DNA of 32,000 nucleotides from Nostoc punctiforme PCC 73102 (GTDB lineage Bacteria; Cyanobacteriota; Cyanobacteriia; Cyanobacteriales; Nostocaceae). Under the pieces are notes generated by a model that was given only the letters and a program-made list of their open reading frames with translations, was not told the DNA's origin and searched no databases. Numbering within the stretch: the first letter of the stretch is position 1; the number at the start of each line of letters is the position of its first letter. Both the position numbers and the translations under genes were made by a program. Location of the stretch: the NCBI RefSeq assembly GCF_000020025.1, contig NC_010632.1, positions 30,001 through 62,000 on the forward strand, read 5' to 3'. This document shows, piece by piece, positions 7,228 to 23,581 of the stretch.

Positions 7228-7548
7228 TACATTTGGCTATGGCATTAGGTTTTGATGATTTTAATATGTATCCCAGTATTTACTCTCTGGGAAGAAAGAT
7301 TGCTTAATTTAGTGCTTACAAGATAAATCAGAAAGCTTTTAAATACAATGCATAAAATTTGGATTTCGACTACTAGTTAAATTTAACTAGGTATAAAAGC
7401 TTAGTTAAAATGGGTGACTTGCAAAAATTCTGAAACAGTAATATCACTATAGAGAAAATATTTTTTGTTCACTCTCAAGAAAGTCAACAGATTTTTTAGT
7501 GAATTCATCAATTTAGGGATCATTACTGCTTAAACCAAAAAAGCATTT

Positions 7549-7968: not shown

Positions 7969-8119
7969 AGTAGTAGCAGCCATTAGCGTTAATTGGAGTA
8001 AAGCAATAAAGCTGTAAATCCATTTAAATATTTGGCATATTTAACTTTAAATTTGGGAACTTTAAACCATTTTTAAAGTATCAAAATATTATACCTTAAA
8101 GCTGAAGAGCATCTTTCAA

Positions 8120-9532: not shown

Positions 9533-9630
9533 GCCATTGAATTTATCGATTAGCGTTGATGGCAAGACTGAAAGTTTGGGAGATATTTAAAGGGAAAAAT
9601 TACTCTTGATTAATGACTTTGAGGTTAATT

Positions 9631-10419: not shown

Positions 10420-10439
10420 TTTTTTGCTTTTGTCCCTTT

Positions 10440-11651
10440 ATGAGGGCGATGTCTACGCTTATGAGCGATCTAAAATCATTTCGTACTGATGTTCTTACCG
10501 ACTTTGGAGCCACTGCTGCACAGGTAGAAGAATTATTGGTATACAATCAAAACGTCTTTGATCACAACACATTAACTGATAGAGTTAAGTTTCCCTTGAC
10601 TTCTGAACCCCATATACCTGCTTGGGAAGAATACGCTGTTTCAGCAAAAGTTTTAGGAGTATTTGAGGTACTCAAACAGCGATTAGTACAATTTCAATTT
10701 CCCATAATCGAGGGTATTAGCCAGACTGAAGCGTATCAGTCTGCTACTCGTCGGGGTGTTGCGACAGATGGGATGATTGCAACAGGCTTAGTCTTACAAG
10801 AACCTGAGAAACTGCAATTAATACTACATCAAAGCTTGGCTGGAACCATCCCAGTATTATTAACTGGAAACCGAGAGGACTTTGTTAGTTTAGTTCAAGC
10901 TTTGACAAAGCGAAATGAACCGCAGCCAGTCCCAAACTCTATGGGAGCCTGTATAGTTAGCGGTTTTAATAACTGGGATAGAATTCGCCAATATCGCCAA
11001 CAATGGTCGGCTGAAAATCCTGCTAATTGTTCTCAAAGTAGTTGGTTAGAAGAGTTTGGGCGGTTAATACCACAAAAACAGCTTTATCAGGATAAATTTA
11101 TTCTTTTGAGTAATAGTTCTTATAGTAATGTTTCAGCCAAAGATATAGGACTTGAAAAAGCACAATGGCAGCGTTTATCCTTGACAATTCGGCTGGAACA
11201 TGAATGCACTCACTACTTTACACGTCGGTTGTTTAATTCTATGCAAAATAATATATTCGACGAGTTAATTGCTGACTACAGAGGGATTGTAGCCGCTATT
11301 GGGACTTATCGAGCCGACTGGTTTTTGCACTTTTTGGGGTTGGAGTCTTTTCCTAATTATCGAGAGGGAGGTAGACTACAAAATTACCTCGGTAATCCGT
11401 CACTTTCTGATGGGGCTTTTAAGATTTTACAGGTATTAGTGAAAGCTGCTGCTGAAAATTTGCAGTCTTTTCATGTTGAGTATGTGAGCCAGTTGAGAGA
11501 TGCTAATATTCAACCCCTAATGTTAATAGCATTGACTAACTTGACGTTAGAAGAATTAGCTGATAAATCAGCTGATTTTCGTATTCAACAAATATTAAAT
11601 AATTTGCTGAATATTCAATCTACAGACAGGATTCAGGTCAAGGCCATTTAA
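10440..11651 (+). CDS. Hypothetical protein with an HExxH motif (possible metallopeptidase-like)
   Basis: 403 aa. A single HECTH sits in IRLEHECTHYFTRRLF, followed ~15 aa later by DELIAD. It starts 20 nt after the ParA-like gene. No family recognised. Confidence 0.6.
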   Translation: MRAMSTLMSDLKSFRTDVLTDFGATAAQVEELLVYNQNVFDHNTLTDRVKFPLTSEPHIPAWEEYAVSAKVLGVFEVLKQRLVQFQFPIIEGISQTEAYQSATRRGVATDGMIATGLVLQEPEKLQLILHQSLAGTIPVLLTGNREDFVSLVQALTKRNEPQPVPNSMGACIVSGFNNWDRIRQYRQQWSAENPANCSQSSWLEEFGRLIPQKQLYQDKFILLSNSSYSNVSAKDIGLEKAQWQRLSLTIRLEHECTHYFTRRLFNSMQNNIFDELIADYRGIVAAIGTYRADWFLHFLGLESFPNYREGGRLQNYLGNPSLSDGAFKILQVLVKAAAENLQSFHVEYVSQLRDANIQPLMLIALTNLTLEELADKSADFRIQQILNNLLNIQSTDRIQVKAI

Positions 11652-11774
11652 TTCTATATCTTGCCTATATTGACTATTCTCTTTTAGTTGTGTCCTTTGT
11701 AGTAATTTGTGACAAGTACTTCGGTATCTACGTTTTTAACAATTACCATTAGTAAGACATAGGGAAATTGATTT

Positions 11775-12869
11775 ATGACGGAAGTTTTACTTAAAGAATT
11801 AACTAATAGTGACATTGATTGGATGATTGCTACAGGTCATCAAAGAGAAATAACTGCTGGAAATTTACTTATCCAAGAAGGAAAAACTGCCGATTCTCTA
11901 CATATATTACTGGATGGAATTTTAACAGTTAGCATTTCTCAACCAGACAACAGCCCTTTGACTCGCGCTTTTGCAGCAATCGAAGGTGGTGAAATCTCAG
12001 GTCGGGAAATTGCGAGATTATTCAGTGGCGAAGTAGTGGGAGAACTACCATTGATAGGTAATCGCCCAACTGCTACAACTATTAAAGCTATAGAAAAATC
12101 ATTGGTGATGTCAATTCCTCAACAGAAATTGGCAGCAAAGTTGCAGCAAGACGTTGGTTTTGCTTCACGCTTTTATCGGGCGATCGCCATTATGCTTTCA
12201 GATAGACTACAAAGTATCATCAATCAGCTTGGTCGTAGCAACTTGGCGCAAGGTCAGCCCCTCAGAGATGTGCTATTTATTTTGGGAGAATTACATGATA
12301 GTGACATCGATTGGATGATGGCTTATGGCACTGTGCAAAAAATTCTTGTTAATACTACACTGATTCGTGAAAGAGGGACTGTAGATGCACTATATATTCT
12401 TTTAGATGGCATAATGTCTCTGTCTATTACTGAAGATAAACGTAATCCTTTAGCACGTGCTTTTGCTGCGATCGAGGGTCATGAAATTTCTGGTAGAGAA
12501 ATAGCAAGATTATCCAAAGGCGAAATTGTCGGTGAAACACCCTTTATTGATGGCCGTCTACCTTCTGCAACCGTTAAGACTATTGAAGACTCGATTGTTT
12601 TGTCGGTTCCCCGACAGGAAATGGCAGCAAAGTTACAACAAGATGTCGGATTTGCATCTCGTTTTTATCGTGTGATCGCTACTTTGCTTTCCCAGAGATT
12701 GCAAGGAACGTTGAGTCAACTTGGTTCTGGTAGGCGGGTTTATAGCCAAGGTTTGCCGTTGACTAAAAGTGCGGAATATGAGGATGAGTTGAATGATACC
12801 GTTTTAGATAGTGTGGCGATCGCAGGTAAAAGATTTGATTGGATGTTGGGGCGGTTAAAAGTAAGTTGA
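11775..12869 (+). CDS. Stand-alone tandem cyclic-nucleotide-binding (CAP/CNB) domain protein
   Basis: Two homologous halves each contain DIDWM..., LHILLDG/LYILLDG, GEVVGELPLI/GEIVGETPFI, ...ATTIKAIE/ATVKTIE and KLQQDVGFASRFYR. There is no output domain. Confidence 0.85.
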   Translation: MTEVLLKELTNSDIDWMIATGHQREITAGNLLIQEGKTADSLHILLDGILTVSISQPDNSPLTRAFAAIEGGEISGREIARLFSGEVVGELPLIGNRPTATTIKAIEKSLVMSIPQQKLAAKLQQDVGFASRFYRAIAIMLSDRLQSIINQLGRSNLAQGQPLRDVLFILGELHDSDIDWMMAYGTVQKILVNTTLIRERGTVDALYILLDGIMSLSITEDKRNPLARAFAAIEGHEISGREIARLSKGEIVGETPFIDGRLPSATVKTIEDSIVLSVPRQEMAAKLQQDVGFASRFYRVIATLLSQRLQGTLSQLGSGRRVYSQGLPLTKSAEYEDELNDTVLDSVAIAGKRFDWMLGRLKVS

Positions 12870-12984: not shown

Positions 12985-13182
12985 ATGACAATTAAAGAAC
13001 AAATTACACAAGAACTGGAAAAATTACCTGAACCACTGTTGCAGGAAATTTTAGATTTTGTTCAATTTTTGCAAACCAAACACCAGCAACATAATATACT
13101 AGAAATCACTCTTATGAGTGAATCATCGCTGCAAAAAGATTGGTTAAAACCAGAAGAAGAGGCAGCATGGCAGGATTTATAA
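12985..13182 (+). CDS. Antitoxin, DUF2281-like
   Basis: 65 aa. MTIKEQITQELEKLPEPLLQEILDFVQFLQTKH is the pattern I associate with DUF2281 antitoxins. AGAGGGA sits upstream of the ATG. The 3' end overlaps the toxin ATG by 16 nt. Confidence 0.7.
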   Translation: MTIKEQITQELEKLPEPLLQEILDFVQFLQTKHQQHNILEITLMSESSLQKDWLKPEEEAAWQDL

Positions 13183-13679
13183 AGGGCGATATTGTTATCG
13201 TTCCATTCCCATTCTCTGACTTAACTCAAACAAAACGCAGACCTGCTTTAGTTATTGCTACACTTCAGGGAAATGACCTGATTCTTTGCCAAATTACTAG
13301 TCAATCTGTTGGCGATATATACGCTATTCAACTGGATAACAGTGATTTTTACTCCGGTGGTTTAAATCAGCCAAGCAATATCAGACCAAATCGGCTTTTT
13401 ACTGCTGATCAGCAAATTATTTTATACAAAGCTGGTCAGATTAAACCTGAAAAATTAAGAGAAGTTATTAATAAAATTGTTAGAAATTATGATGATGAAT
13501 TGAAGAATAGCATTTTAGATGCTGTGGCGATCGCTATTCTACTTTCTCATAGACTACAAGGTTTGCTGCTAGCTGAGAGTGCAGAATATGACGATGAGTT
13601 GAATCATAGCGTTTTAGATGGTGGTGCGATCGCAGGGAAAAGATTTGATTGGATGCTGGGGCGGTTAAAAGTAAGTTGA
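13167..13679 (+). CDS. MazF/PemK-family toxin fused in frame to a duplicated C-terminal remnant of the cNMP-binding protein
   Basis: MAGFIKGDIVIVPFPFSDLTQTKRRPALVIA... is the canonical PemK/MazF N-terminus. The fold should end near residue ~107 (..INKIVRN). Residues ~108-170 (YDDELKNSILDAVAIA + ILLSHRLQGLLLAESAEYDDELNHSVLDGGAIAGKRFDWMLGRLKVS) copy the tail of the 11775-12869 product. The track start at 13140 was rejected in favour of the ATG at 13167. Confidence 0.75.
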   Translation: MAGFIKGDIVIVPFPFSDLTQTKRRPALVIATLQGNDLILCQITSQSVGDIYAIQLDNSDFYSGGLNQPSNIRPNRLFTADQQIILYKAGQIKPEKLREVINKIVRNYDDELKNSILDAVAIAILLSHRLQGLLLAESAEYDDELNHSVLDGGAIAGKRFDWMLGRLKVS

Positions 13680-13692
13680 ATTGCTGGGTATA
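13488..13692 (+). repeat. Direct repeat copy B (mosaic of cNMP-gene tail segments joined at a HIP1 site)
   Basis: 13488-13535 resembles 12777-12823. It is joined at GCGATCGCT (13527-13535) to a copy of 12674-12884. Confidence 0.7.
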
Positions 13693-13732
13693 GCAGCCCA
13701 CTACTTGATATCACTGGTAATATTGGTACTTG

Positions 13733-14161
13733 CTAGAGTCCTAGCTGATTGACATAAGCTGGTAGTGGCAATAGTTTATTTAATAGCACCTTGTCAGCCG
13801 TCCAGAACTCACCTTGTTCACCCTCAGCACAAGCTAAAAATGCGGCATCATAGAGCGTTGGTAGTTGATATTGTTCTGCAATTTCCCAAGCTCTGACTCT
13901 GAGCAACTGCTCGTTAATGTAATCTATGGGTAGATTACAAAAATCTAGATAACAGCCTTCTGCTTCTTCTATTGTCAGTAAACCCATCCTGACTTTCTTA
14001 CGTAATACTGAGCCTACTTCTGCCCAAGCAAAGCTGGGAATAACTAAACGTGTATGTCCCACAACTGCTTCCAGCACGAGATTATCTGCTAATGGTTCAT
14101 TTTCATCAGGTACAAGATAGGCCATAAGAACGCTTGTATCCAAGCATAGGACTTTATTCAC
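13733..14161 (-). CDS. vapC: PIN-domain toxin (VapC-type)
   Basis: VLCLDTSVLMAYL near the N-terminus, ...YDAAFLACAEG..., ...FWTADKVL. The GTG at 14161 overlaps the antitoxin stop (GTGAATAA) and puts the first Asp ~8 residues from the start. The ORF-track ATG at 14200 would overlap the antitoxin by 47 nt. Confidence 0.75.
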   Translation of the reverse strand: MNKVLCLDTSVLMAYLVPDENEPLADNLVLEAVVGHTRLVIPSFAWAEVGSVLRKKVRMGLLTIEEAEGCYLDFCNLPIDYINEQLLRVRAWEIAEQYQLPTLYDAAFLACAEGEQGEFWTADKVLLNKLLPLPAYVNQLGL

Positions 14162-14414
14162 TTCGCATATCCCCTTCTCTGAGGCTATGAATGAAAACAT
14201 TCACATCTGGGTGTACGCCAGTTCTAGCCTTGATTTTGGCACGTCTGGCTACGATGCTCTGATGAGTAACAATAGCCTGTCGTCGTTTAACCTCTCGTTC
14301 CACTGCTTCAACTACTAGCTCATTGAATGACTCTGAGCCATCTTTAAGATGTTTTGCTTTGCTTAACAGAGAAATAGGAAACCGGATTGTAACTGCTTCA
14401 CGTTCCATGTTCAT
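14154..14414 (-). CDS. vapB: RHH-type antitoxin (VapB-like)
   Basis: 86 aa. VTIRFPISLLSKAKHLKDGSESFNELVVEAVEREVKRR fits a ribbon-helix-helix. It lies immediately upstream of, and overlaps, the PIN gene. Confidence 0.65.
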   Translation of the reverse strand: MNMEREAVTIRFPISLLSKAKHLKDGSESFNELVVEAVEREVKRRQAIVTHQSIVARRAKIKARTGVHPDVNVFIHSLREGDMRSE

Positions 14415-14514
14415 TTATAGCATTCATATTGTGATATCTAATTATATAACCATTTTTTGGTGGAGATAGAAAGTCTAATGACTGTAGCAATTGACTATGA
14501 ACTCTAACGAAAAA

Positions 14515-14770
14515 AATTTAGTTTTACCTAAAAATTGTGCATTGTGTTTAAAAGTTGCTTGATCTGCTTGGCAATTTTATCTAGCGATCGCTATTTTGCT
14601 TTAAAATCTAATTTCACCTAAAAATTGTGCATTGTATTCAAAAGTCGCTTTGGAGCAGAATATTATTTTGGCTTAGTACTGTTCTCGTGCAATCGCTATT
14701 TTGATTCTAAATCTAGTTTTATCTAAAAATTGTGCATTACATCTAAATTTTAAAGGCGCTATTATTTGTT
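14515..14770. repeat. Three degenerate tandem repeat units upstream of the RiPP precursor genes
   Basis: The core (C/T)CTAAAAATTGTGCATT occurs at 14527-14545, 14617-14635 and 14721-14740, each preceded by AAAT(C/T)TA(A/G)TTT. A second box, CGCTATT(T/A)TTTG, starts at 14589, 14694 and 14757. Confidence 0.65.
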
Positions 14771-14793
14771 GTAACAAACAGCACAAATATAAT
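14766..14793 (+). promoter_or_regulatory. Candidate sigma70-type promoter for the precursor genes
   Basis: TTGTTG (14766-14771), a 16-nt spacer, then a perfect TATAAT (14788-14793), ~73 nt upstream of the ATG at 14866. The background is AT-rich, so a chance match is plausible. Confidence 0.25.
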
Positions 14794-14865
14794 GTTTATT
14801 GGTTGTTATCAACATTCAATGAACATAAAAACTTACTTTGTCTTTAAATTCAGTTAGGAGAAATT

Positions 14866-15054
14866 ATGTCTACCCCAAACGAAAATCAAAACCCTAAACA
14901 GGCAAGTGACTATATCGAAATTAATGAAGATGGAGAACTAGTAGTTAAAGATCCTAAATTAGCAGAGTCACTTCAAGAGCTAACTCCTGAAGAACTTGAG
15001 CAGATTGCTGGTGGAGATAATGGCAATTGTAACTGTAATGTAAAACAAAGATAA
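14866..15054 (+). CDS. RiPP precursor peptide 1: 50-aa double-glycine leader + 12-aa core DNGNCNCNVKQR
   Basis: RBS TAGGAGAAATT precedes the ATG. The leader ends LQELTPEELEQIAGG, a classic GG cleavage motif for C39-ABC exporters. A paralogue follows 213 nt downstream. Confidence 0.8.
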   Translation: MSTPNENQNPKQASDYIEINEDGELVVKDPKLAESLQELTPEELEQIAGGDNGNCNCNVKQR

Positions 15055-15096
15055 TAAGTGTGACGTTTATTGCTTACAGGTAATCCCTTAATTAAG

Positions 15097-15172
15097 CAAA
15101 CAGAATTAATTACATATTTATTCTTTGCTGGACAACAATTTCAACCTAGTTTTGTTGAATTAATTCTGTTTG
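15097..15172 (+). promoter_or_regulatory. Perfect 15-bp inverted repeat (stem-loop) between the two precursor genes
   Basis: CAAACAGAATTAATT (15097-15111) pairs with AATTAATTCTGTTTG (15158-15172) across a 46-nt loop. No U-tract follows. Confidence 0.5.
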
Positions 15173-15266
15173 GCGACTTGTACGCCACTTTCGTAAATCC
15201 TCTGAGCATCGAAATATCCATCTTTTGTGCTTATAAACCTCGTTTTTGAATCACTTAGGAGAAATC

Positions 15267-15500
15267 ATGTCTAATCCAAACGAAAATCAAAGCCCTAAAC
15301 AGGTAAGTGACTATATCGGAATTAATGAAAATGGGGAGTTAGTGGTTACAGATCCTAAATTAGCAGAGTCACTTCAAGAATTAAGTACTGAAGAACTTGA
15401 GCAGATTGCTGGTGGTGTCCTACCCACTAATGGTACTTGTACTAATAATGGATGTGGCAAAGCTGTACTAGAATCAGATGAATCAGCTTCTCTTCCGTAA
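15267..15500 (+). CDS. RiPP precursor peptide 2: 50-aa double-glycine leader + 27-aa core VLPTNGTCTNNGCGKAVLESDESASLP
   Basis: It has the same RBS (TAGGAGAAATC then ATG at 15267). The leader is identical to precursor 1 at 42 of 50 positions. The ORF-track TTG start at 15246 was rejected. Confidence 0.8.
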   Translation: MSNPNENQSPKQVSDYIGINENGELVVTDPKLAESLQELSTEELEQIAGGVLPTNGTCTNNGCGKAVLESDESASLP

Positions 15501-15577
15501 AAATTGCTAAACTAATACCAATTTTTCGCCAAATTCTAGTGTGTGTTAAGGACGATAAAGATTTAGTATTTCAGACT

Positions 15578-15640
15578 ATGATTAGCTCCACAGAATTAAG
15601 CGTTGATGAAGAAAAGTTGGTAGAGTTGTCTGTTAGATGA
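15578..15640 (+). other. 20-codon ORF resembling a decayed third leader (MISSTELSVDEEKLVELSVR)
   Basis: CACAGAATTAAGCGTTGATGAAGAAAAGTTG... resembles the CAAGAATTAAGTACTGAAGAACTTGAG... segment of precursor 2. Its TGA (15638-15640) is part of the terminator stem. Confidence 0.3.
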
Positions 15641-15690
15641 TCGCTACACTTGGTTAAATATCAAGTAAGATTGTGGCGATCACTTTTTTT
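15638..15690 (+). terminator. Rho-independent terminator/attenuator between the precursor genes and the radical SAM gene
   Basis: An 11-bp stem pairs TGATCGCTACA (15638-15648) with TGTGGCGATCA (15672-15682), including one G-U pair. The loop is 23 nt, followed by C plus T7 (15684-15690). Confidence 0.6.
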
Positions 15691-15755
15691 CAAATCATCT
15701 GGATTTTCTTCACGACAAATCAAGGAATATTTTTTGAAATTGAGAGTTTTTTATT

Positions 15756-16817
15756 ATGACTGTAACAATTTTGCACGAAGCTAATTCTATTGATACTGAT
15801 TATGTCAAGCGTGCGCGATTAATATCTGATAAGTTTCTTGAATTAATTATCTTACCAACAGAACAGTGCAATTTTCGCTGTACCTATTGTTATGAAGATT
15901 TTTCAATAGGGCGGATGCAGCCGGAGACGATAGCAGGGATTAAAGCTATCCTTGATAAACGATGCCCAAATTTAAGTTATTTAAATTTAGCCTGGTTTGG
16001 TGGAGAGCCACTTGTTGCCAAAAATATTGTATTAGATATTTCTGAATATGCTTTGTCTCTAGTATCCAAGTATCCCCATCTCCATTATTCAAGTAATATG
16101 ACCACAAATGGTTACTTATTGGATCTGAATACAGCTTCTGCCTTAGCCAATGTGGGAGTTACAAAATACCAAATTTCTCTTGATGGCCCTCGAGAAATCC
16201 ACAACCAAAGTCGTATTCGTGCTGATGGAAAAAGTACATTTGAACGAATTTGGACTAATTTACTAGCAATTCGTGATAGTTCATTACCAATTTATATAAA
16301 TCTGCGTCTGCACTTCACCATAGATACAGTAAAGCTTATCGACCCACTACTAGAGGATATCAAAAGAGAATTTTTGCCTGATTCAAGGTTTTCTGTTTAC
16401 TTCAAATCTATTGAACGTCTTGGTGGTACTAATGATGCTTCAATCAAAATTTATTCAGAGAGTGAAAAAAATACAGCTATCAAAACTCTTGAAGCAAAGT
16501 TATTTGGTGAGAAATTGCAATCACCACAGAATGCTACCTTGCCAGACGACTATGTTTGTTATGCATCACGTCCCAACTCTTTAGTAATTCGTGCCAACGG
16601 TTCTGTTGGTAAATGTACAGTAGCCCTTTCTGATGAACGCAACAATATTGGCACTTTACGGACAGATGGTCGGCTTGATCTCATACCAGGTCGTTTTGCT
16701 CCTTGGGTTCGTGGAATTCAAACCCTCGATCCTGATGTATTAGGTTGTCCTCTCGTTTCTTTGCCAACAAGTGATGAAATAGCGACTAATTTACAAACAA
16801 AAGCACTTGCTGTATAG
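15756..16817 (+). CDS. Radical SAM peptide-modifying enzyme with a short SPASM/twitch-like C-terminal domain
   Basis: CNFRCTYC (CxxxCxxC) at residues ~38-45, GGEPL, and the C-terminal Cys-containing segment VCYASRPNSLVIRANGSVGKCTVAL...LGCPL. There is no room for an N-terminal RRE domain. Confidence 0.9.
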   Translation: MTVTILHEANSIDTDYVKRARLISDKFLELIILPTEQCNFRCTYCYEDFSIGRMQPETIAGIKAILDKRCPNLSYLNLAWFGGEPLVAKNIVLDISEYALSLVSKYPHLHYSSNMTTNGYLLDLNTASALANVGVTKYQISLDGPREIHNQSRIRADGKSTFERIWTNLLAIRDSSLPIYINLRLHFTIDTVKLIDPLLEDIKREFLPDSRFSVYFKSIERLGGTNDASIKIYSESEKNTAIKTLEAKLFGEKLQSPQNATLPDDYVCYASRPNSLVIRANGSVGKCTVALSDERNNIGTLRTDGRLDLIPGRFAPWVRGIQTLDPDVLGCPLVSLPTSDEIATNLQTKALAV

Positions 16818-16956
16818 CGAAAAATAGCATTTATAGTCAGAATTTATGCAACTGGCATATCTATCTTCTGTTAAAGAATCAATAGTCAAGGTTTTGTGGA
16901 ATCTTGACTTTTGACAATCTTAACTGAGGCGGCATAAATATATTGTTAAACAGAAA

Positions 16957-18402
16957 ATGTTAAACCAGAAGCGCAGTATATTTCGTAAAGAATCTCTGGA
17001 ACGTCTATCTTCTCCTGAACGATTAGACCAACTCATGCAGGTAGTTAGCCCCAGAAGCTGGCTACCTCTTGTCGCCTTGGGTTCTATTGTCGGAGTAGCT
17101 GTTATCTGGAGCATTTATGGACGCATCCCCATCACCGTTGAGGGTAAAGGAGTACTGATTTACCCCAGCAATGTTGTGCCTCTGCAATCAAAAAGCGCTG
17201 GACAGTTAATGGCTCTCAATATCAAAGTTGGGGATGTCATCAAAAAAGGGCAAGTACTCGCAACAATTGACCAAGCGGAACTCCGTAAGCAATTGCAACA
17301 GCAACAAGCGAAACTCACGCAACTAGAGTCACAAGACGAAGCCGTTGGTTCACTGCAAGGGCAAAGACTACAACAAGAAAAGCGATCGCAATCCCAACAA
17401 AGTCACTACCTCCAACAACGTATACTAGAACTGCGAACCATCACACCTCTGCTCAAAACCAAAGGCAACACCTCAATTGGCCAGCAACGTCAAGGTTTAC
17501 AGCAACGTCTTTTGCAAGCCCAAGCCTTGAACCCCATTTTCCTCCAAAGAATGGAAATTCGCAGACAATTCAAAAAAGAAGGCGCGATTTCTGGTGATGA
17601 AGCACTCACGGCTGAACAAGAATATTTGCAAAACCTGGAAAAAATCTCTGACATTCAAAATCAGTTGAAAGAACTGGATGTAAAAACGACTCAAACAGAA
17701 AAAGATTATCGTGAAAACTTGAGTACGATTTCTGATCTGCAAGCTCAGTTGAAAGAATTAGATAGCAAACAGGCTTCTGTGGCTCAACAAGACTTAGAAA
17801 GCGTTACTACCCGAAAAAAAGAGATTCAAGAAGTTAAGCGCGAAATTGCCCAATTAGAAGTGCAATTAGGTGACAACAGTCAAATCATTAGTCAATATAG
17901 TGGACGCATTTTAGAAATCACGCAGACACCAGGGCAGGTTGTTGAAGCTGGTACACGCTTGGCAACTATCGAGGCGGAGAACCCCAAAAGTAAGTTAATT
18001 GGTGTTACCTATTTCCCTGTAGCAGAAGGTAAGAAAATTAAAGCAGGGATGACAATCCAAATTACCCCCCAAACTGTCAAGCGGGAGCGATTTGGCGGTA
18101 TTGTTGCCAATGTTACTAGTATCTCGCGCTTTCCGATTACAAAAGAAGCAGCTGCATCGGAGGTAGGTAATGCAGAGGTGGTGGAAGGTCTAGTATCTCA
18201 ACAAAAAGATGGTTTGATACAAGTATTTTCTGACTTAGAGATAAATTCCAGCACCCCAAGCGGCTATAAATGGTCTTCTTCTACAGGGCCAAGGCTGACT
18301 GTTTCTTCTGGAACTACCACTGTTGCACGAGTCAAGGTAGAAGAACGCGCTCCCATCACTTTTGTTTTACCTATCTTGAGGTCTGTTAGTGGTATCTACT
18401 AA
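16957..18402 (+). CDS. HlyD-family membrane fusion protein of an NHLM-type bacteriocin exporter
   Basis: N-terminus FRKESLERLSSPERLDQLMQVVSP plus one TM, a long Q-rich coiled coil, and a C-terminal beta-rich domain. Confidence 0.85.
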   Translation: MLNQKRSIFRKESLERLSSPERLDQLMQVVSPRSWLPLVALGSIVGVAVIWSIYGRIPITVEGKGVLIYPSNVVPLQSKSAGQLMALNIKVGDVIKKGQVLATIDQAELRKQLQQQQAKLTQLESQDEAVGSLQGQRLQQEKRSQSQQSHYLQQRILELRTITPLLKTKGNTSIGQQRQGLQQRLLQAQALNPIFLQRMEIRRQFKKEGAISGDEALTAEQEYLQNLEKISDIQNQLKELDVKTTQTEKDYRENLSTISDLQAQLKELDSKQASVAQQDLESVTTRKKEIQEVKREIAQLEVQLGDNSQIISQYSGRILEITQTPGQVVEAGTRLATIEAENPKSKLIGVTYFPVAEGKKIKAGMTIQITPQTVKRERFGGIVANVTSISRFPITKEAAASEVGNAEVVEGLVSQQKDGLIQVFSDLEINSSTPSGYKWSSSTGPRLTVSSGTTTVARVKVEERAPITFVLPILRSVSGIY

Positions 18403-20632
18403 ATCTACTTTAGTAACACTGTTTAATCCTTGGCAGTATTTACAAAAATTACTGCCGAGCAGAAGCATACGGGTAAAAACGCCCACTCTTCTACAAATGG
18501 AAGCAGTGGAATGTGGGGCTGCTGCTTTGGGAATTATTCTCGGTTACTATGGCCGAACTGTACCTTTACCACAACTGCGTCAGGAATGCGGAGTTTCCCG
18601 CGATGGCAGCAAAGCATCTAACATGGTGAAGGTTGCGAGAAGCTATGGACTCGAAGCTAAAGGCTTTAAAAAAGAACTCAAGCAATTGTGGGAACTGCGA
18701 CCACCTTACATTATCTTTTGGAACTTCAACCACTTTGTTGTCGTAGAGGGGTGGAATAAACAGCGAGTTTATCTCAATGACCCCGGTACAGGCCCGCGCC
18801 ATGTATCTTTACAGGAATTCGACGAGGGGTATACCGGAGTGGTGCTGGTAATGGAACCAGGCGCGGAGTTTGTCAAAGGTGGTCGTAAACCCAGCATGAT
18901 TTTATCGCTGGCGAAAAGGTTACAAGGTGCTGGGGATGCCTTAATTTACTGCATAGTCGCGGGATTTTTCTTAACTGTAGTTGGGCTGGTAATACCAGTG
19001 TTTAGCCAAGTGTTTGTAGATGACATCTTGGTGGAGGGACGGCAATTATGGTTGCGTCCTTTGCTTGTGGGTATGGCGATCGCTGCTATACTCCAAGGAT
19101 CGCTAACTTTACTACGGTTACGCTACCTGCGCCGCTTGAAAATCAAATTAGCTGTGGGTATGTCCAGCCGTTTCCTGTGGCATATCCTCCGCTTACCTGT
19201 GAGCTTTTACGCTCAACGATTTAGCGGAGAAATCAGTAATCGTACTACTCTCAATGACCAAGTAGCTGATGTTCTGGCGGGACGATTAGCAACTACAATC
19301 ATCGATACATTTATGGTGTTTTTTTACGCCCTAGTCATGGTGCAATATGACTGGGTGCTGACCTTAATTGTAGTTAGCTTTGCTGCCGTGAATGTCTTAA
19401 CTTTGCAACTAATTTCTCGTCAACGTGTAGACGCGAATCAACGATTGATTCAAGAATATGGTAAAGCTGCTGGTGTATCTATTGCCGCGCTTCAAAGTAT
19501 AGAAACACTCAAAGCATCAGGGTTAGAGTCAGATTTCTTTTCCCGGTGGTCAGGTTATTACACTAAGGCTCTTAATTCCCAGCAGGAACTGGGGGTGACA
19601 AACCAGACATTCTCAGTATTACCCACGCTTTTATCCGCCCTTTCTTCAATGTTGTTGTTGGTTGTCGGTGGATTACGGGTTATGGATGGACATCTTAGCA
19701 TCGGAATGCTTATAGCCTTTCAAGGTTTGATGCTTAACTTTCAGCAGCCTGTTAACAATCTGGTCAACTTTGGTACAACTCTTCAAGAACTGGAAGGTAA
19801 TTTAATTCGCCTTGATGATGTGCTGGATAATCCCATTGGGGAGGGAGCAGGTGGAGATGGGGGAGTAACATCCTCCTCATCCCCCTCATCTGCTTATCTT
19901 GTTCCCAAATTGCAGGGATATGTTGAGTTGCAGAATATTACGTTTGGCTATAGCCGCCTGGAACCGCCACTGATTGAAAACTTTAACCTCTCAATTAAGC
20001 CGGGACAGCGAGTAGCTTTGGTAGGTGGAAGCGGTTCTGGGAAATCTACCGTTGCCAAACTTGTAAGCGGACTTTATCAACCTTGGGCGGGAGAAGTTTA
20101 CTTTGATGGTAAACCTAGAGAGCAAATTCCCCAACAACTGCTTACAAATTCTGTTGCAATGGTGGAGCAGGAAATTTTGTTGTTTGGCGGTACGGTTAGA
20201 GATAATTTGACTCTGTGGGATACTACTGTACCAGATAAAAGCCTGATGCGGGCATGTGTTGATGCAGCGATCGCTGATGTAATCCTCTCTATGTCCGGTG
20301 GGTTTGATGCCGAACTTATAGAAGGTGCTGCAAATTTAAGTGGCGGTCAGCGACAACGCTTAGAAATCGCTCGTGCTTTAGTGAATAATCCTTCAATCCT
20401 GATCATGGATGAAGCCACCAGTGCCCTATATGCAGAGACAGAACAAATCATTGACCGGAATCTGCGCCGCCGAGGATGCACCTGTATAATTGTCGCTCAT
20501 CGATTAAGCACCATCCGCGACTGCGATCAAATCATTGTCCTCGAACGTGGAAAGGTAGTACAACTTGGCACTCACAAAGAATTGTGGCAAGTCGATGGTG
20601 CATATTCGCGCTTGCTAGGCACCCAAGGGTAG
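18389..20632 (+). CDS. ABC exporter with N-terminal C39 peptidase domain (peptidase/permease/ATPase)
   Basis: The C39 Cys is in LLQMEAVECGAAALGIILGYYG and the His in FNHFVVVEGW. The TMD is followed by an NBD with GGSGSGKST, LSGGQRQR, ILIMDEATS and AHRLST. The GTG start overlaps the HlyD stop by 14 nt. The first in-frame ATG lies inside the C39 domain and so cannot be the start. Confidence 0.9.
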   Translation: MVSTKSTLVTLFNPWQYLQKLLPSRSIRVKTPTLLQMEAVECGAAALGIILGYYGRTVPLPQLRQECGVSRDGSKASNMVKVARSYGLEAKGFKKELKQLWELRPPYIIFWNFNHFVVVEGWNKQRVYLNDPGTGPRHVSLQEFDEGYTGVVLVMEPGAEFVKGGRKPSMILSLAKRLQGAGDALIYCIVAGFFLTVVGLVIPVFSQVFVDDILVEGRQLWLRPLLVGMAIAAILQGSLTLLRLRYLRRLKIKLAVGMSSRFLWHILRLPVSFYAQRFSGEISNRTTLNDQVADVLAGRLATTIIDTFMVFFYALVMVQYDWVLTLIVVSFAAVNVLTLQLISRQRVDANQRLIQEYGKAAGVSIAALQSIETLKASGLESDFFSRWSGYYTKALNSQQELGVTNQTFSVLPTLLSALSSMLLLVVGGLRVMDGHLSIGMLIAFQGLMLNFQQPVNNLVNFGTTLQELEGNLIRLDDVLDNPIGEGAGGDGGVTSSSSPSSAYLVPKLQGYVELQNITFGYSRLEPPLIENFNLSIKPGQRVALVGGSGSGKSTVAKLVSGLYQPWAGEVYFDGKPREQIPQQLLTNSVAMVEQEILLFGGTVRDNLTLWDTTVPDKSLMRACVDAAIADVILSMSGGFDAELIEGAANLSGGQRQRLEIARALVNNPSILIMDEATSALYAETEQIIDRNLRRRGCTCIIVAHRLSTIRDCDQIIVLERGKVVQLGTHKELWQVDGAYSRLLGTQG

Positions 20633-20689: not shown

Positions 20690-23581
20690 ATGCTAATACA
20701 GGGGCAAGTTTATATAGTTAATGGCAATGAACCGATTCTACTGGATGACCCTTCACGGGTGTGGATAATTCAGTCTGGCTCTATGGCTTTGTTTGCCATT
20801 ATAGTTAAAGATGGCTCTATTGAAGGGACACGCCGTTATCTGTGCAGTATTAGCCAAGGTGAAGCACTTTTCGGGACTGCTGATAAATTTGCTAATCAGT
20901 ATCGTCAGATTTTGGCAGTTCCAATTGGTGAGACTGAATTACTGCAAATACATAAGGAATGTTACTGCGAGTTAATAGCCAGTGAGGATGCTAAGGCGAT
21001 CGCCTGGATAGAAAATTGGTTATTACAAATTGGTGGTGTATTGTCCCAGATTACCATACCAGCAATTCATGTAAAAGCTGAGGGACAATCACGATTTTCC
21101 TTAAACAATGGTCAGACTTTTCAGCCAGAAGCAGGTGTCACCTGTTGGGTTCAACTTACTCAAGGCACTGTCCGCTTTCTGGGATTCGAGGAATTAATTT
21201 TAACCGCATCCACTACACCATTCCCTTTGACTGACAAAATGTGGCTAGAAGCAGTGGAAGGGGTGCAACTTACTACTAAGACTACTAGCGAATTCCAAAA
21301 TTCAGATATCCTTCTAGCTGGGTTATCTCAACTGCATACTCAATTGCTACAATGCCTTAACCTGTTAGATGAACGAGAACTACAGGCAGAGATGATACGG
21401 TTGCGCGATCGCCAACGCCTGAATCGTCAAGTTACAGCGCAAGCTATAGGCTCTTTAGCATCAACATTAAGTTCCCAAGATGGAGACTTTTTCAATGAAG
21501 GTACTCCTTTGTTGGTTGCTGCTGGAGCCGTAGGGAGAGCTATGGGTGTAGAGGTTCGCCCCCCGTCTCGTTCTGAAAACCTCAAGCGAGTTAAGGAGCC
21601 ATTAGAAGCAATTGTCCGGGCTTCACGTATCCGAATGCGGCGGGTACTATTGCGAGATAATTGGTGGGAGAAAGATTCTGGCCCCCTAGTTGCCTATACT
21701 CAGCAAGATAATCGACCAGTAGCACTGCTACCAATTAGTGCAACTCGTTATGAAATTTTTGACCCAGTTGAGCATACCCGTTTTCGAGTGGATGAGCATA
21801 TAGCTGCAACACTGGCTCCTGTTGCCTATATGTTTTATCGCTCTCTACCTGATAAAGTACTGCAAGCTGTTGATATATTGCGGTTCACACTTAAAGGACG
21901 TAGCCCAGAACTGCTAGTAATTTTGTTTACAGGTATCGCCGTCACATTACTAGGGATGCTTACACCTTATGCCACATCAATTATCATAGATAACGCAATT
22001 CCTGATAGCGACAAGGGATTATTGCTACAAATAGGATTGGGACTACTTGTTGCAGCTTTGGGAACAGGTGTATTTCAGCTAACTCAGGGATTTGCTCTGC
22101 TGCGAATTGAAACGGCTGGGGATGCTTCCACTCAGGCTGGTGTCTGGGATCGGCTGCTCTGTTTACCAGTATCCTTTTTCCGACAGTACACAACCGGAGA
22201 CATCTTCTCCCGCGTCTCATCTGTGAGTACGATCAGCCGACGAATCAGTGGGAGAACCCTAATTAATCTCCTTACCAGCCTGTTCGCACTGTTTTACTTA
22301 GGACAGTTATTTTATTACAACTATAAATTAGCTCTAATTGCAGTTGCATTTGCCATCGTTGCGATCGCAGTGACTACAGTCTCTGGTTTGCTATTGCTAT
22401 CTAAGGTACGTCCACTTTTGGAACTGCGAGGCAGTATTTTTGGGCAGACGGTGCAACTAATTAATGGCATTTCCAAATTGCATATTGCTGGGGCAGAAGA
22501 ACGTGCATTTGCAGCTTGGAGTAAAAACTATACTCGACAAATTAAGCTAGAGCTTAGTACACAAAGGGTTGAAGATGCTGTTGCGCTTTTTAATACAGTA
22601 ATGCCCATATTAACGAATGGTGTGCTTTTCTGGTTTACTATTAAGCTGCTAGAAAGCCCTCAAACTTCAGGAGTTATTGAAATATCTCTTGGAACTTTCC
22701 TCGCTTTCAATACAGCTTTTAGTAACTTTACTAAGGGAACCACAGATTTGAGCAATACAGTTACTGAAATTCTGCAAGTTCTTCCCCAATGGCAACGCAC
22801 CCAGCCTATTCTTTCGACTATACCAGAAGTGGATCTGTGCAAAGCTGATCCAGGCAAGCTGATTGGTAATATTTCTTTAGAACATATTACTTTCCGCTAC
22901 CGTAGTGATGGCCCTCTGACGCTGGATGATGTGAGTATTTCTGCTGCTCCAGGAGAGTTTATTGCCTTAATAGGTGGTTCTGGCAGTGGTAAATCGACGA
23001 TTCTACGATTGCTACTGGGATTTGAAACTCCAATTGCAGGTAGCATCTACTATGATGGTCAAGACTTATCTGGCTTAGATATAGATGCAGTCCGCCGGCA
23101 GTTGGGCGTTGTTTTACAAAATGGTCAGCTGAGTTCAGCTTCTATTTTCGAGAATATTGCAGGCGGCGCTCAGATTACTTTAGATGAAGCTTGGGAGGCG
23201 GCGCGGATGTCGGGATTCGCTGAGGATATCACCGCCATGCCAATGCAAATGCATACTGTCGTGAGTGAAGGAGGCGGTAATCTTTCTGGAGGACAACGAC
23301 AACGGTTGTTAATTGCTCGCGCTCTGGCATTAAAACCCCGGATCTTGCTATTTGATGAGGCTACCAGTGCGCTCGATAACAGAACCCAGGCGATTGTTAG
23401 TGAAAGTTTAGATAACTTACAAGTTACCAGAATTGCGATCGCTCACCGACTAAGCACTATCCGCAACGCTCACCGCATTTATGTACTCCAGGCAGGTCGA
23501 GTTGTACAACAAGGGACTTTTCAAGAGTTAGCTGCTGTTGAGGGGCTATTTGCCCAGTTAATGTCTAGGCAAATGGCGTAG
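20690..23581 (+). CDS. Second ABC exporter subunit with N-terminal cNMP-binding-like and Cys-less C39-like domains
   Basis: 963 aa. The N-terminal segment VWIIQSGSMALFAI...GEALFG is CNB-barrel-like. Residues ~270-400 resemble a C39-like domain, but no Cys is seen where the catalytic Cys would be expected (GTPLLVAAGAVGRAMG). The TMD is followed by an NBD with GGSGSGKST, LSGGQRQR, LLFDEATSALD and AHRLST. Confidence 0.9.
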   Translation: MLIQGQVYIVNGNEPILLDDPSRVWIIQSGSMALFAIIVKDGSIEGTRRYLCSISQGEALFGTADKFANQYRQILAVPIGETELLQIHKECYCELIASEDAKAIAWIENWLLQIGGVLSQITIPAIHVKAEGQSRFSLNNGQTFQPEAGVTCWVQLTQGTVRFLGFEELILTASTTPFPLTDKMWLEAVEGVQLTTKTTSEFQNSDILLAGLSQLHTQLLQCLNLLDERELQAEMIRLRDRQRLNRQVTAQAIGSLASTLSSQDGDFFNEGTPLLVAAGAVGRAMGVEVRPPSRSENLKRVKEPLEAIVRASRIRMRRVLLRDNWWEKDSGPLVAYTQQDNRPVALLPISATRYEIFDPVEHTRFRVDEHIAATLAPVAYMFYRSLPDKVLQAVDILRFTLKGRSPELLVILFTGIAVTLLGMLTPYATSIIIDNAIPDSDKGLLLQIGLGLLVAALGTGVFQLTQGFALLRIETAGDASTQAGVWDRLLCLPVSFFRQYTTGDIFSRVSSVSTISRRISGRTLINLLTSLFALFYLGQLFYYNYKLALIAVAFAIVAIAVTTVSGLLLLSKVRPLLELRGSIFGQTVQLINGISKLHIAGAEERAFAAWSKNYTRQIKLELSTQRVEDAVALFNTVMPILTNGVLFWFTIKLLESPQTSGVIEISLGTFLAFNTAFSNFTKGTTDLSNTVTEILQVLPQWQRTQPILSTIPEVDLCKADPGKLIGNISLEHITFRYRSDGPLTLDDVSISAAPGEFIALIGGSGSGKSTILRLLLGFETPIAGSIYYDGQDLSGLDIDAVRRQLGVVLQNGQLSSASIFENIAGGAQITLDEAWEAARMSGFAEDITAMPMQMHTVVSEGGGNLSGGQRQRLLIARALALKPRILLFDEATSALDNRTQAIVSESLDNLQVTRIAIAHRLSTIRNAHRIYVLQAGRVVQQGTFQELAAVEGLFAQLMSRQMA

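What the first reader, a model, noticed from the sequence alone, without database searches (positions are those of the whole stretch)
15016..15500. Both divergent cores carry exactly two Cys, each with Asn at position -3 (N-x-x-C): possible Cys-Asn thioether (ranthipeptide-like) chemistry
Core 1 is D-N-G-N-C-N-C-N-V-K-Q-R (N2..C5 and N4..C7). Core 2 is VLPT-N-G-T-C-T-N-N-G-C-GKAVLESDESASLP (N5..C8 and N10..C13). The leaders are identical at 42 of 50 positions. The cores differ in length (12 vs 27 aa) and in sequence, except for the shared N-G-x-C element. This conserved-leader/hypervariable-core pattern retains one modification motif. From memory, the only precedent I know for N-x-x-C motifs is a streptococcal peptide whose rSAM enzyme (NxxcB) links Cys sulfur to the Asn beta-carbon. 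A cyanobacterial GG-leader version exported by an NHLM system would be new. Core 1 has no Ser or Thr, which argues against lanthionines.
Basis: partly seen in the sequence, partly recalled or inferred. Interest (0 to 1): 0.7.

Follow-up and report, generated by a model that had tools for sequence, protein, structure and literature searches.

The report
Asn-x-x-Cys peptides with radical SAM maturase
Two small secreted-peptide genes of Nostoc punctiforme sit next to a radical SAM enzyme, and their shared Asn-x-x-Cys motif recurs in more than a hundred related peptides from several phyla, so they most likely form an uncharacterised family of sulfur-bridged (Cys-to-Asn) cyclic peptides.

Summary
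Two tandem precursor genes (14866-15054 and 15267-15500) share 42 of 50 leader residues and end in GG. Their cores differ, but each has two Cys with Asn at -3.

A 353-aa radical SAM (rSAM) gene follows directly (15756-16817), then a complete NHLM exporter: HlyD, C39-peptidase ABC and a second ABC. The window holds no lanthipeptide enzyme.

The rSAM belongs to a large family with no curated model. The best 150 cluster representatives score below E 1e-69, and members occur in Cyanobacteria, Actinobacteria, Proteobacteria and Paenibacillus. In many of the fetched loci a member sits beside a small precursor with a related leader.

In 115 non-redundant cores (296 Cys), Asn occupies -3 at 125 Cys. 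That is 70% in close relatives and 48% in an independent metagenome set, against about 10 and 18 Cys expected (32 and 60 seen). No shuffle reached either value. Other subfamilies use N-x-C, N-x3-C or N-x4-C repeats.

The enzyme keeps only three invariant C-terminal Cys, spaced like the substrate-binding auxiliary cluster of CteB and PapB. It has no second cluster and no N-terminal recognition domain.

Cys-Asn thioether chemistry is therefore well supported but unproven. The enzyme is not of the NxxcB type. I found no publication on this family.

The parts
14843..15014 (+). First copy of the 172-nt tandem duplication (ribosome-binding site plus leader-coding DNA). The second copy is 15244-15415, 88% identical.
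   Evidence: the repeat finder family D1
14866..15054 (+). Precursor gene 1 (62 aa). Leader is codons 1-50, ending ...EQIAGG. AGGAG ribosome-binding site at 14856-14860.
   Evidence: An identical protein is on record for Nostoc punctiforme (P0122).
15016..15051 (+). Core 1, DNGNCNCNVKQR: two overlapping N-x-x-C units (N2/C5 and N4/C7). No Ser, Thr or aromatic residue.
15267..15500 (+). Precursor gene 2 (77 aa from the ATG at 15267). AGGAG ribosome-binding site at 15257-15261.
   Evidence: An identical protein is on record (P0121).
15417..15497 (+). Core 2, VLPTNGTCTNNGCGKAVLESDESASLP: two N-x-x-C units (N5/C8 and N10/C13).
15756..16817 (+). Radical SAM maturase, 353 aa. C38-x3-C42-x2-C45 forms the SAM cluster. 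C268-x13-G-x4-C287 plus C331 form a single three-Cys auxiliary site. It has no N-terminal peptide-recognition domain and no second auxiliary-cluster motif.
   Evidence: Pfam PF04055. Partial NCBIfam matches, all far below cut-off. The six Cys are 99-100% conserved in 78 homologues. AlphaFold model with pLDDT 78. Foldseek best matches are CteB, anSME, ChlB and SkfB.
16957..18402 (+). NHLM-type HlyD secretion adaptor
   Evidence: TIGR03794, 532 bits against a cut-off of 156
18389..20632 (+). NHLM ABC exporter with an N-terminal C39 peptidase, which cleaves the leader after Gly-Gly
   Evidence: TIGR03796, 1191 bits against a cut-off of 853. Pfam Peptidase_C39, ABC_membrane and ABC_tran.
20690..23581 (+). 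Second NHLM ABC permease/ATPase subunit
   Evidence: TIGR03797, 1056 bits against a cut-off of 709

Best explanation
This is a six-gene RiPP (ribosomal peptide natural product) cluster of Nostoc punctiforme: two precursors, one radical SAM maturase and a three-part NHLM exporter.

Shown by sequence:
- The two peptides have a conserved about 50-residue leader ending in Gly-Gly and hypervariable cores built on Asn-x-x-Cys.
- The adjacent 353-aa radical SAM enzyme is the only candidate modifying enzyme.
- Its family travels with such precursors across phyla.

Inferred mechanism:
1. The enzyme binds the leader directly, probably through the conserved I-x-I-N/D-E-x-G-x-V-V-x-x-P-x-L-A motif, because it has no recognition domain.
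2. The core Cys thiolate binds the open iron of the single auxiliary [4Fe-4S] cluster held by C268, C287 and C331.
3. The 5'-deoxyadenosyl radical abstracts a hydrogen from the Asn three residues upstream. The beta-carbon is most likely, by analogy with NxxcB. The alpha-carbon is possible, as in QmpB.
4. The carbon radical couples to the bound sulfur and forms a small thioether ring. Each core would receive two rings. In core 1 they overlap (N2-C5 and N4-C7).
5. The C39 domain of the ABC exporter then cleaves after Gly-Gly, and the 12- and 27-residue bicyclic peptides are secreted.

The biological role of the products is unknown.
For: -
- The rSAM is 100% identical to a Nostoc punctiforme protein. 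Its family is large: 1013 cluster representatives at E <= 1e-30, and the best 150 are all below 1e-69 and mostly about 320-360 aa.
- Leader-HMM searches found such precursors, usually directly upstream of the rSAM gene, in many of the 160 fetched loci from at least four phyla.
- Asn at -3 is strongly enriched in three sets: 32/46, 33/125 and 60/125 Cys, against 9.8, 17.5 and 17.8 expected.
- Repeat units contain one Asn and one Cys each. Pseudomonas L071 has four V-N-x-x-C-G units. Streptomyces L048 and Planomonospora L031 have three N-x3-C units.
- Near-minimal single-Cys cores keep the motif: VNIICFHFRFR, ITVNGICFSWSFN and MNFGCITI. A lone Cys cannot form an intramolecular disulfide.
- 90 of 115 cores have an Asn within five residues upstream of every Cys. 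Asp is the next polar residue at -3, at 20 Cys. NxxcB also accepts Asp.
- The only Cys conserved outside the SAM-cluster motif are C268, C287 and C331. Their spacing (19, then 44) resembles the three-Cys AC1 site of CteB (C344, C362, C413) and PapB (C352, C370, C421). AC1 has an open coordination site and binds the substrate selenocysteine or Cys (PMC10177961).
- The closest solved fold is the thioether synthase CteB.
- The synteny precursor-rSAM-HlyD-ABC recurs in at least 10 cyanobacterial loci.
Against: - There are no chemical data of any kind.
- The fold neighbours also include a formylglycine-forming enzyme (anSME) and a cyclophane synthase (ChlB), so fold alone does not fix the chemistry.
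- Asn-Gly is a classical turn-forming pair, so Asn could be conserved for conformation rather than as the cross-link partner.
- About 30% of Cys in close relatives, and more than half across the whole family, lack Asn at -3. Some cores (for example GPPDTMCPC and LLNEVMCMGPNILC) have no suitably placed Asn.
- Known thioether-forming maturases have two auxiliary clusters. An enzyme with only the first would need another route for the second electron.
- I could not read the model coordinates, so I did not check that the three Cys lie together in space.
Confidence: 0.55

Rival explanations
1. The rSAM forms thioethers from the Cys, but to a different acceptor (another residue, or a backbone alpha-carbon as in sactipeptides). 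Asn, often as Asn-Gly, is conserved only because it shapes the tight turn that brings donor and acceptor together.
For: Gly is common at -2, -1 and +1 of Cys. The spacing between Asn and Cys varies from 1 to 5. QmpB already shows an alpha-carbon link to Asn.
Against: Each repeat unit carries exactly one Asn and one Cys, whatever lies between them. Minimal cores such as VNIIC keep Asn with no Gly. Asp, a chemically equivalent beta-carbon acceptor, substitutes at -3.
Confidence: 0.15
2. The rSAM performs a different reaction on these cores, such as Cys oxidation to formylglycine (anSME-like), epimerisation or a carbon-carbon link. The two Cys then simply form a disulfide or bind metal.
For: anSME and the epimerase EpeE are among the fold matches. 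Most cores have an even Cys count: 59 of 115 have two.
Against: Cores with one or three Cys are frequent: 3 and 43 of 115. Core 1 has no aromatic residue for a cyclophane. anSME has two fully ligated auxiliary clusters, but this family has only a three-Cys site of the substrate-binding type. Epimerisation or disulfide formation would not explain the position-specific Asn.
Confidence: 0.12
3. The peptides are class II lanthipeptides, as NCBI names them ('type A2 lanthipeptide'), modified in trans by one of the LanM enzymes encoded elsewhere in the N. punctiforme genome. The neighbouring rSAM would be unrelated.
For: The source annotation is seen. N. punctiforme has four LanM-like genes and many dispersed precursors (PMC2887384). 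The end of the leader resembles double-glycine lantibiotic and bacteriocin leaders (weak NCBIfam hits).
Against: The 32-kb window has no LanM, LanB, LanC or LanKC. Core 1 has no Ser or Thr, and 30 of 115 Cys regions lack them, so lanthionine is impossible there. The leader matches neither the NHLP nor the Nif11 model above cut-off. The rSAM-precursor pairing is conserved across phyla.
Confidence: 0.03

Closest known systems
NxxcA/NxxcB of Streptococcus orisratti (radical SAM beta-thioether, a ranthipeptide)
   Same: The precursor has Asn three residues upstream of Cys. A radical SAM enzyme links Cys23 sulfur to the beta-carbon of Asn20. Asp is tolerated as acceptor.
   Different: NxxcB is described as a SPASM enzyme with two auxiliary clusters. 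It belongs to the streptococcal shp/rgg quorum-sensing network and makes a single bridge. The Nostoc enzyme is 353 aa, with one three-Cys auxiliary site and no N-terminal domain. It has a different leader, NHLM export and two or more motifs per core. I did not hold the NxxcB sequence, so I made no direct comparison.
PapB/freyrasin and CteB/Tte1186 (SCIFF-type ranthipeptide maturases)
   Same: The closest solved fold is CteB. PapB is among the partial NCBIfam matches (87 bits). The Cys triad of the substrate-binding auxiliary cluster AC1 has similar spacing. PapB links Cys to the beta-carbon of Asp in repeated short motifs.
   Different: In those enzymes the motif order is C-x3-D, with Cys first. 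They have an N-terminal recognition domain and a second, four-Cys cluster (AC2), and they are 440-450 aa. All NCBIfam scores are far below the cut-offs: 87 against 340 for PapB and 56 against 425 for SCIFF.
QmpB (sactionine between Cys sulfur and the Asn alpha-carbon)
   Same: A radical SAM enzyme makes small Cys-Asn rings.
   Different: The linkage is to the alpha-carbon, and QmpB is a SPASM enzyme of the streptococcal network. Which carbon is used here is unknown.
NHLP/Nif11 'NHLM' microcin systems of cyanobacteria (e.g. prochlorosin-type clusters)
   Same: Same three-gene exporter (TIGR03794/03796/03797) and Gly-Gly leader cleavage. Some homologues of this rSAM are paired with true Nif11-leader precursors.
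   Different: Those systems use LanM or cyclodehydratases. Here the leader is a distinct, shorter family and the maturase is a radical SAM enzyme.
Twitch-domain radical SAM peptide maturases (SkfB; TqqB and WprB as described in the literature)
   Same: A truncated SPASM region with a single auxiliary cluster. SkfB is a thioether synthase and a fold match.
   Different: Sequence similarity to SkfB is confined to the radical SAM core (E 4e-4). TqqB and WprB were not compared. Their substrates and reactions differ (Cys-Met alpha-thioether, Thr-Gln ether, Trp-Arg C-C).

Membership tests
Radical SAM superfamily | A CxxxCxxC motif in a partial TIM barrel (PF04055) | tested here: met
   C38-x3-C42-x2-C45. 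PF04055 at E 1.3e-16, above the cut-off. The motif is invariant in 78 homologues.
SPASM-domain maturases (the group that includes NxxcB, PapB, CteB) | A C-terminal seven-Cys region binding two auxiliary clusters (three-Cys AC1 plus four-Cys AC2) | tested here: not met
   Only C268, C287 and C331 are conserved after the barrel. There is no Pfam SPASM hit. NCBIfam SPASM-maturase models align only up to about model position 356-378 of 428-444. The AC2 Cys listed for CteB and PapB have no counterpart.
Twitch-type radical SAM enzymes | A truncated SPASM region binding a single auxiliary Fe-S cluster | tested here: inconclusive
   C268-x13-G-x4-C287 plus C331 fits the first half of the SPASM motif and the AC1 spacing. 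Cluster binding and the spatial grouping of the three Cys were not verified.
NxxcB family (streptococcal RaS-RiPP) | An N-x-x-C motif in the precursor | tested here: met
   Both cores carry two such motifs. Asn is at -3 for 125 of 296 Cys in 115 homologous cores.
NxxcB family (streptococcal RaS-RiPP) | Sequence membership of the enzyme, and linkage to an shp/rgg quorum-sensing operon | not tested
The window has no Rgg-type regulator among the Pfam hits. The architecture differs (see the SPASM row).
Ranthipeptides | A radical-SAM-installed thioether from Cys sulfur to a non-alpha carbon | not testable with these tools
   This needs MS/MS and NMR of the modified peptide.
NHLM (NHLP/Nif11) bacteriocin export system | The HlyD adaptor TIGR03794, the C39-ABC TIGR03796 and the ABC TIGR03797, each above its cut-off | tested here: met
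   532/156, 1191/853 and 1056/709 bits (score/cut-off)
NHLP or Nif11 leader precursor families | The leader matches TIGR03793 or TIGR03798 above the cut-off | tested here: not met
   TIGR03798 scores only 12.9-13.0 bits against a cut-off of 32.3, covering the last about 18 leader residues. No NHLP hit was found.
Class II (type A2) lanthipeptides, the name NCBI gives these peptides | A LanM synthetase nearby, and Ser/Thr plus Cys in the core | tested here: not met
   No lanthipeptide enzyme among all ORFs of at least 80 aa. Core 1 has no Ser or Thr. NF040664 scores 15 bits against a cut-off of 46.
Three-residue cyclophane (triceptide) maturases such as ChlB | An aromatic-x-x motif in the core | tested here: not met
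   Core 1 contains no aromatic residue. ChlB is only a fold neighbour.

The most novel reading that the evidence does not exclude
The cluster would represent a new, phylum-spanning RiPP class. It would be made by a compact radical SAM enzyme that lacks a recognition domain and has a single auxiliary cluster. That enzyme would stitch Cys to an upstream Asn (or Asp) at spacings from N-C to N-x4-C. This would show that the second auxiliary cluster and the recognition domain of all known thioether maturases are dispensable. Alternatively, the Asn carboxamide itself could take part in a linkage not yet described.
Probability: 0.3. Interest if true: 0.75.

Novelty: new variant of a known kind. Interest (0 to 1): 0.6.

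Why it matters
If the prediction holds, Cys-Asn thioether formation is not a curiosity of one streptococcal operon. It would be the hallmark of a very large enzyme family found in soil, freshwater and symbiotic bacteria: at least 150 distinct 50%-identity clusters in Cyanobacteria, Streptomyces, Kitasatospora, Pseudomonas, Paenibacillus and many uncultured lineages.

The enzyme is unusually small. It appears to keep only the substrate-binding auxiliary cluster, which makes it a clean system for a debated question: what the auxiliary clusters of thioether-forming radical SAM enzymes actually do.

The cores are short and hypervariable, and the motif is minimal (N-x-x-C). The enzyme could therefore be a compact tool for stapling peptides.

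The work also corrects a database name. These peptides are annotated as 'type A2 lanthipeptides', and the context does not support that.

Tried and rejected
1. Lanthipeptide reading. No LanM, LanB or LanC was found in any ORF of at least 80 aa. Core 1 lacks Ser and Thr. Rejected.
2. Membership in a curated maturase family. All 65 NCBIfam hits are far below their cut-offs; the best is TIGR04463 at 144 bits against 525. Eight non-cyanobacterial and Nif11-type precursors matched no curated precursor model, apart from the Nif11 leader in one.
3. Sequence match of the C-terminal 99 residues to any solved structure. None was found. The profile search against the PDB aligned only the radical SAM core.
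4. A third, decayed precursor copy at 15539-15640, suggested by a 19-nt repeat. The similarity is not significant (E 0.19). Dropped.
5. A terminator or attenuator hairpin between the two precursor genes (inverted repeat at 15097-15111 and 15158-15172). The folding z-score is only -1.76, and the consensus scan found no terminator there. Not supported.
6. Promoter scan of 14200-17000. It found no more sites than shuffled sequence.
7. Literature. Nine full-text searches (NxxcB, NxxC, ranthipeptide with cyanobacteria or Asn, beta-thioether, Nostoc punctiforme with radical SAM, and others) found nothing on this cluster or enzyme family. Subscription-only papers are not covered.
8. Obtaining the NxxcB sequence from a paper's supplement. 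No supplement was held.
Full report
**1. What is in the sequence**

The region 14866-15500 holds two small genes on the + strand.
- Precursor 1 (14866-15054, 62 aa): MSTPNENQNPKQASDYIEINEDGELVVKDPKLAESLQELTPEELEQIAGG followed by DNGNCNCNVKQR.
- Precursor 2 (ATG at 15267, stop at 15500, 77 aa): an equivalent leader followed by VLPTNGTCTNNGCGKAVLESDESASLP.

The leaders are identical at 42 of 50 positions. Each gene has an AGGAG ribosome-binding site 5 nt upstream of its ATG. The two genes lie in a 172-nt direct repeat that is 88% identical (14843-15014 and 15244-15415). They are therefore a tandem duplication whose cores have diverged.

Each core has exactly two Cys, and each Cys has Asn at -3: N2/C5 and N4/C7 in core 1, N5/C8 and N10/C13 in core 2. 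Core 1 has no Ser, Thr or aromatic residue.

**2.

- A 353-aa ORF (15756-16817) starts 256 nt after precursor 2. It carries C38-x3-C42-x2-C45 and matches Pfam Radical_SAM.
- It is followed by an HlyD adaptor (16957-18402), a C39-peptidase ABC exporter (18389-20632) and a second ABC subunit (20690-23581).
- These three match the NHLM equivalogs TIGR03794, TIGR03796 and TIGR03797 well above their cut-offs.
- No ORF of at least 80 aa in the 32-kb window is a lanthipeptide synthetase, a cyclodehydratase or a stand-alone recognition protein.
- The rSAM is 100% identical to a protein of Nostoc punctiforme.
- NCBI names both peptides 'type A2 lanthipeptide'. The context does not support that name.

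**3. The enzyme family**

- No curated NCBIfam model claims the protein. The best match is TIGR04463 at 144 bits against a cut-off of 525. The next are the Clo7bot, geopeptide, FlmE/OhkG, PapB and CefB maturases, all partial.
- These alignments start at about model position 75-85. The N-terminal peptide-recognition domain of those maturases is therefore missing. The ORF cannot be extended upstream.
- The alignments stop near model position 360 of about 440. The second half of the SPASM region is therefore missing as well.
- In an alignment of 78 homologues from the fetched loci, only six Cys are conserved (99-100%): C38, C42, C45, C268, C287 and C331. C268-x13-G-x4-C287 is the first half of the SPASM motif.
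- A paper on PapB and Tte1186 lists the auxiliary-cluster ligands (PMC10177961). AC1 has three Cys (CteB C344, C362, C413; PapB C352, C370, C421) and an open iron site that binds the substrate chalcogen. AC2 has four Cys.
- The Nostoc triad is spaced 19 and 44 residues apart, compared with 18 and 51 in CteB. It looks like AC1 alone. This is inference, because I could not measure distances in the model.
- An AlphaFold model built from a 51-sequence alignment has mean pLDDT 78.
- Its best PDB matches are CteB (thioether), anSME (formylglycine), ChlB (a cyclophane synthase) and SkfB (thioether, twitch domain). The fold places the enzyme in the SPASM/twitch group but does not fix the chemistry.
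- The family is large. A search of 1.84 billion cluster representatives found 1013 at E <= 1e-30. The best 150 were all below 1e-69, and most were 320-360 aa.

**4.

- A profile search with the two precursors found 17 further peptides with the same leader in Nostocales and relatives.
- Scanning one genome per species with the rSAM returned 80 loci (of 253 hits). Cyanobacteria were 55-92% identical. Streptomyces, Kitasatospora, Nonomuraea, Planomonospora, Paenibacillus, Pseudomonas, Chromobacterium, Nitrobacter, Nannocystis, Entotheonellaceae, Chloroflexi, Planctomycetes and others were 42-51% identical.
- A metagenome scan returned 80 more loci.
- A leader HMM found small ORFs, usually directly upstream of the rSAM gene, in many of these loci. 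They share the motif (I/V)x(L/I/V)(D/N)(E/D)xG(R/K/E)(V/I)V(I/V)xxPxLA, which corresponds to IEINEDGELVVKDPKLA in Nostoc.
- The leader motif and the enzyme have therefore travelled together across phyla. This is the main evidence that these peptides are the enzyme's substrates.

**5. What is conserved in the cores**

Only Cys, Asn and some Gly are conserved.

| Set | Cores / Cys | Asn at -3 | Expected from within-core shuffles | Shuffles reaching the observed value |
|---|---|---|---|---|
| Same-leader cyanobacterial cores | 22 / 46 | 32 (70%) | 9.8 +/- 2.6 | 0 of 3000 |
| Remaining genome-derived cores | 48 / 125 | 33 | 17.5 | 1 of 3000 |
| Independent metagenome cores | 45 / 125 | 60 (48%) | 17.8 +/- 3.7 | 0 of 3000 |

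- In the genome-derived set, Asn at -5 is also enriched (34 against 14.4 expected), as is Asn at -1 (32 against 20.6).
- In the metagenome set, Asn at -5 occurs 26 times against 15.1 expected.
- Pooled, there are 115 cores and 296 Cys. The residue at -3 is Asn 125 times. The next most frequent are Val (33), Gly (32), and Asp and Ala (20 each).
- 83 of 115 cores have at least one N-x-x-C.
- 90 of 115 have an Asn within five residues upstream of every Cys.
- 30 Cys regions contain no Ser or Thr.

The patterns are often repeat-like, with one Asn and one Cys per unit:
- Pseudomonas L071 has V-N-I-G-C, V-N-A-K-C, V-N-G-G-C and V-N-S-S-C.
- Gammaproteobacterial peptides end in W-N-G-A-C-S-N-S-R-C.
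- Streptomyces L048 and Planomonospora L031 have three N-x3-C units (for example N-G-S-S-C, N-A-S-Q-C, N-S-S-S-C).
- Many actinobacterial cores read x-N-x-C-P-N-L-V-A-G-C-G (spacings -2 and -5) or T-N-N-C-H-G-G-N-C-A-K-G-C-G.

Single-Cys cores next to rSAM homologues keep the motif: VNIICFHFRFR, ITVNGICFSWSFN and MNFGCITI. Some of these sit behind true Nif11 leaders. A single Cys cannot form an intramolecular disulfide.

The shuffles do not correct for shared ancestry. However, the cores are hypervariable and the signal repeats in independent phyla.

**6. Most likely mechanism**

Shown: a precursor-rSAM-exporter cluster, a position-specific Asn/Cys signature, an enzyme with one three-Cys auxiliary site, and a Gly-Gly leader with a C39 exporter.

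Inferred:
1. The enzyme recognises the leader directly.
2. A core Cys binds the open iron of the auxiliary cluster.
3. The 5'-deoxyadenosyl radical abstracts a hydrogen from the upstream Asn.
4. The carbon radical couples to sulfur and forms a small thioether ring.
5. After all rings are installed, the exporter removes the leader after GG and secretes the peptide.

The exact precedent is NxxcB, which links Cys23 sulfur to the beta-carbon of Asn20 and tolerates Asp, Ala and Gln as acceptors. QmpB shows that an alpha-carbon link to Asn is also possible. I put about 0.55 on Cys-Asn thioethers and about 0.9 on the weaker statement that the rSAM modifies these cores.

**7. Rivals**

- Asn may be conserved as a turn former, often as Asn-Gly, while the sulfur is linked elsewhere. 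About 0.15.
- The enzyme may perform other chemistry, such as formylglycine formation or epimerisation, with the Cys forming disulfides or binding metal. About 0.12.
- A LanM encoded elsewhere in the genome may act in trans. N. punctiforme has four, but core 1 has no Ser or Thr. About 0.03.
- Cyclophane formation is excluded for core 1 because it has no aromatic residue.

**8. Comparison with what is known**

The system works like NxxcB and PapB-type ranthipeptide maturation, but it fails the architectural test for that enzyme group. It has no second auxiliary cluster, no N-terminal recognition domain, and scores far below all curated cut-offs.

It uses the NHLM exporter known from NHLP/Nif11 systems, but its leader is not NHLP or Nif11 (13 bits against a cut-off of 32). 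Nine full-text searches found no paper on this cluster or family. The library does not cover subscription-only papers.

I therefore rate it a new variant of a known kind. The chemistry probably has a precedent, but the enzyme family, leader family and phylogenetic breadth are undescribed.

**9. Verdict**

- Interest is 0.6. It is a concrete, experimentally cheap lead into a large uncharacterised radical SAM RiPP family with a minimal architecture. It is not a conceptual surprise for the field.

Noticed in passing
L010 (Nostoc sp. LEGE 12450) 4484-9833 and L084, compared with window 14866-20632: These loci carry HlyD and C39-ABC genes 97-98.5% identical to the window's. Their rSAM is only 64% identical, and their precursor is quite different (core TDIDVICPSTTNPGCNLVAGCGGGG...). 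The precursor-plus-maturase cassette seems to have been exchanged in front of a conserved exporter.
   Followed up: partly
window 14513-14755: Three direct repeats of about 48 nt (14513-14560, 14603-14650, 14708-14755; 73-88% identical), spaced 90 and 105 nt apart. They sit just upstream of precursor 1 and share the core TTACCTAAAAATTGTGCATT. They could be regulator-binding or promoter-region repeats. The consensus promoter scan found no more sites than chance.
   Followed up: partly
L013 4501-4779, L014 4505-4777, L008 3244-3540, L016 3154-3447: rSAM homologues (60-68% identical) sit next to long leader precursors: true Nif11 type in L013 (TIGR03798 above cut-off), and a different long leader, not scanned against any model, in L008 and L016. 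Their short cores carry a single Cys with Asn at -3 or -4 (ITVNGICFSWSFN, VNIICFHFRFR, AVNVWKCGKTALS). The same maturase family therefore appears to serve unrelated leader types.
   Followed up: partly
window 14866-15054 and 15267-15500 (proteins P0122 and P0121): NCBI names these and 12 of their 17 homologues 'type A2 lanthipeptide/lantipeptide'. The window has no lanthipeptide enzyme, and core 1 has no Ser or Thr. The name is probably a propagated misannotation based on the double-glycine leader end.
   Followed up: yes
P0242 (1406 aa) and P0247 (849 aa): Two cluster representatives carry this rSAM domain at the N-terminus of much longer proteins (matches at residues 19-329 and 24-330). They are fusions with unknown partner domains.
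   Followed up: no
window 15097-15111 and 15158-15172: A perfect 15-nt inverted repeat with a 46-nt loop lies between the two precursor genes. The predicted fold is not significantly more stable than shuffled sequence (z = -1.76), and no T-tract terminator follows.
   Followed up: yes
window 13140-14414: Directly upstream of the cluster are a MazF/PemK-like toxin gene (13140-13679, +) and a PIN-domain gene (13733-14200, -). The PIN gene has a small overlapping ORF (14154-14414, -) that is likely its antitoxin.
   Followed up: no
window 8120-12869: A same-strand gene run: Cache/HAMP sensor, ParA/MinD-like ATPase, DUF7005 (586 bits) and a protein with two cyclic-nucleotide-binding domains. This is a possible signalling module of unknown function.
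   Followed up: no
window 79-3357: An ISL3-family transposase ORF lacking the first about 30 positions of the Pfam model (79-750, +) overlaps the end of an 876-aa CHAT-protease/AAA/NB-ARC/GUN4-like protein (727-3357, -). This may be an insertion-disrupted region.
   Followed up: no
window 14478-14492 versus 15756-15770: The first 15 nt of the rSAM gene (ATGACTGTAACAATT) recur with one mismatch at 14478-14492, upstream of the precursors. This could be chance or a trace of an earlier rearrangement.
   Followed up: no
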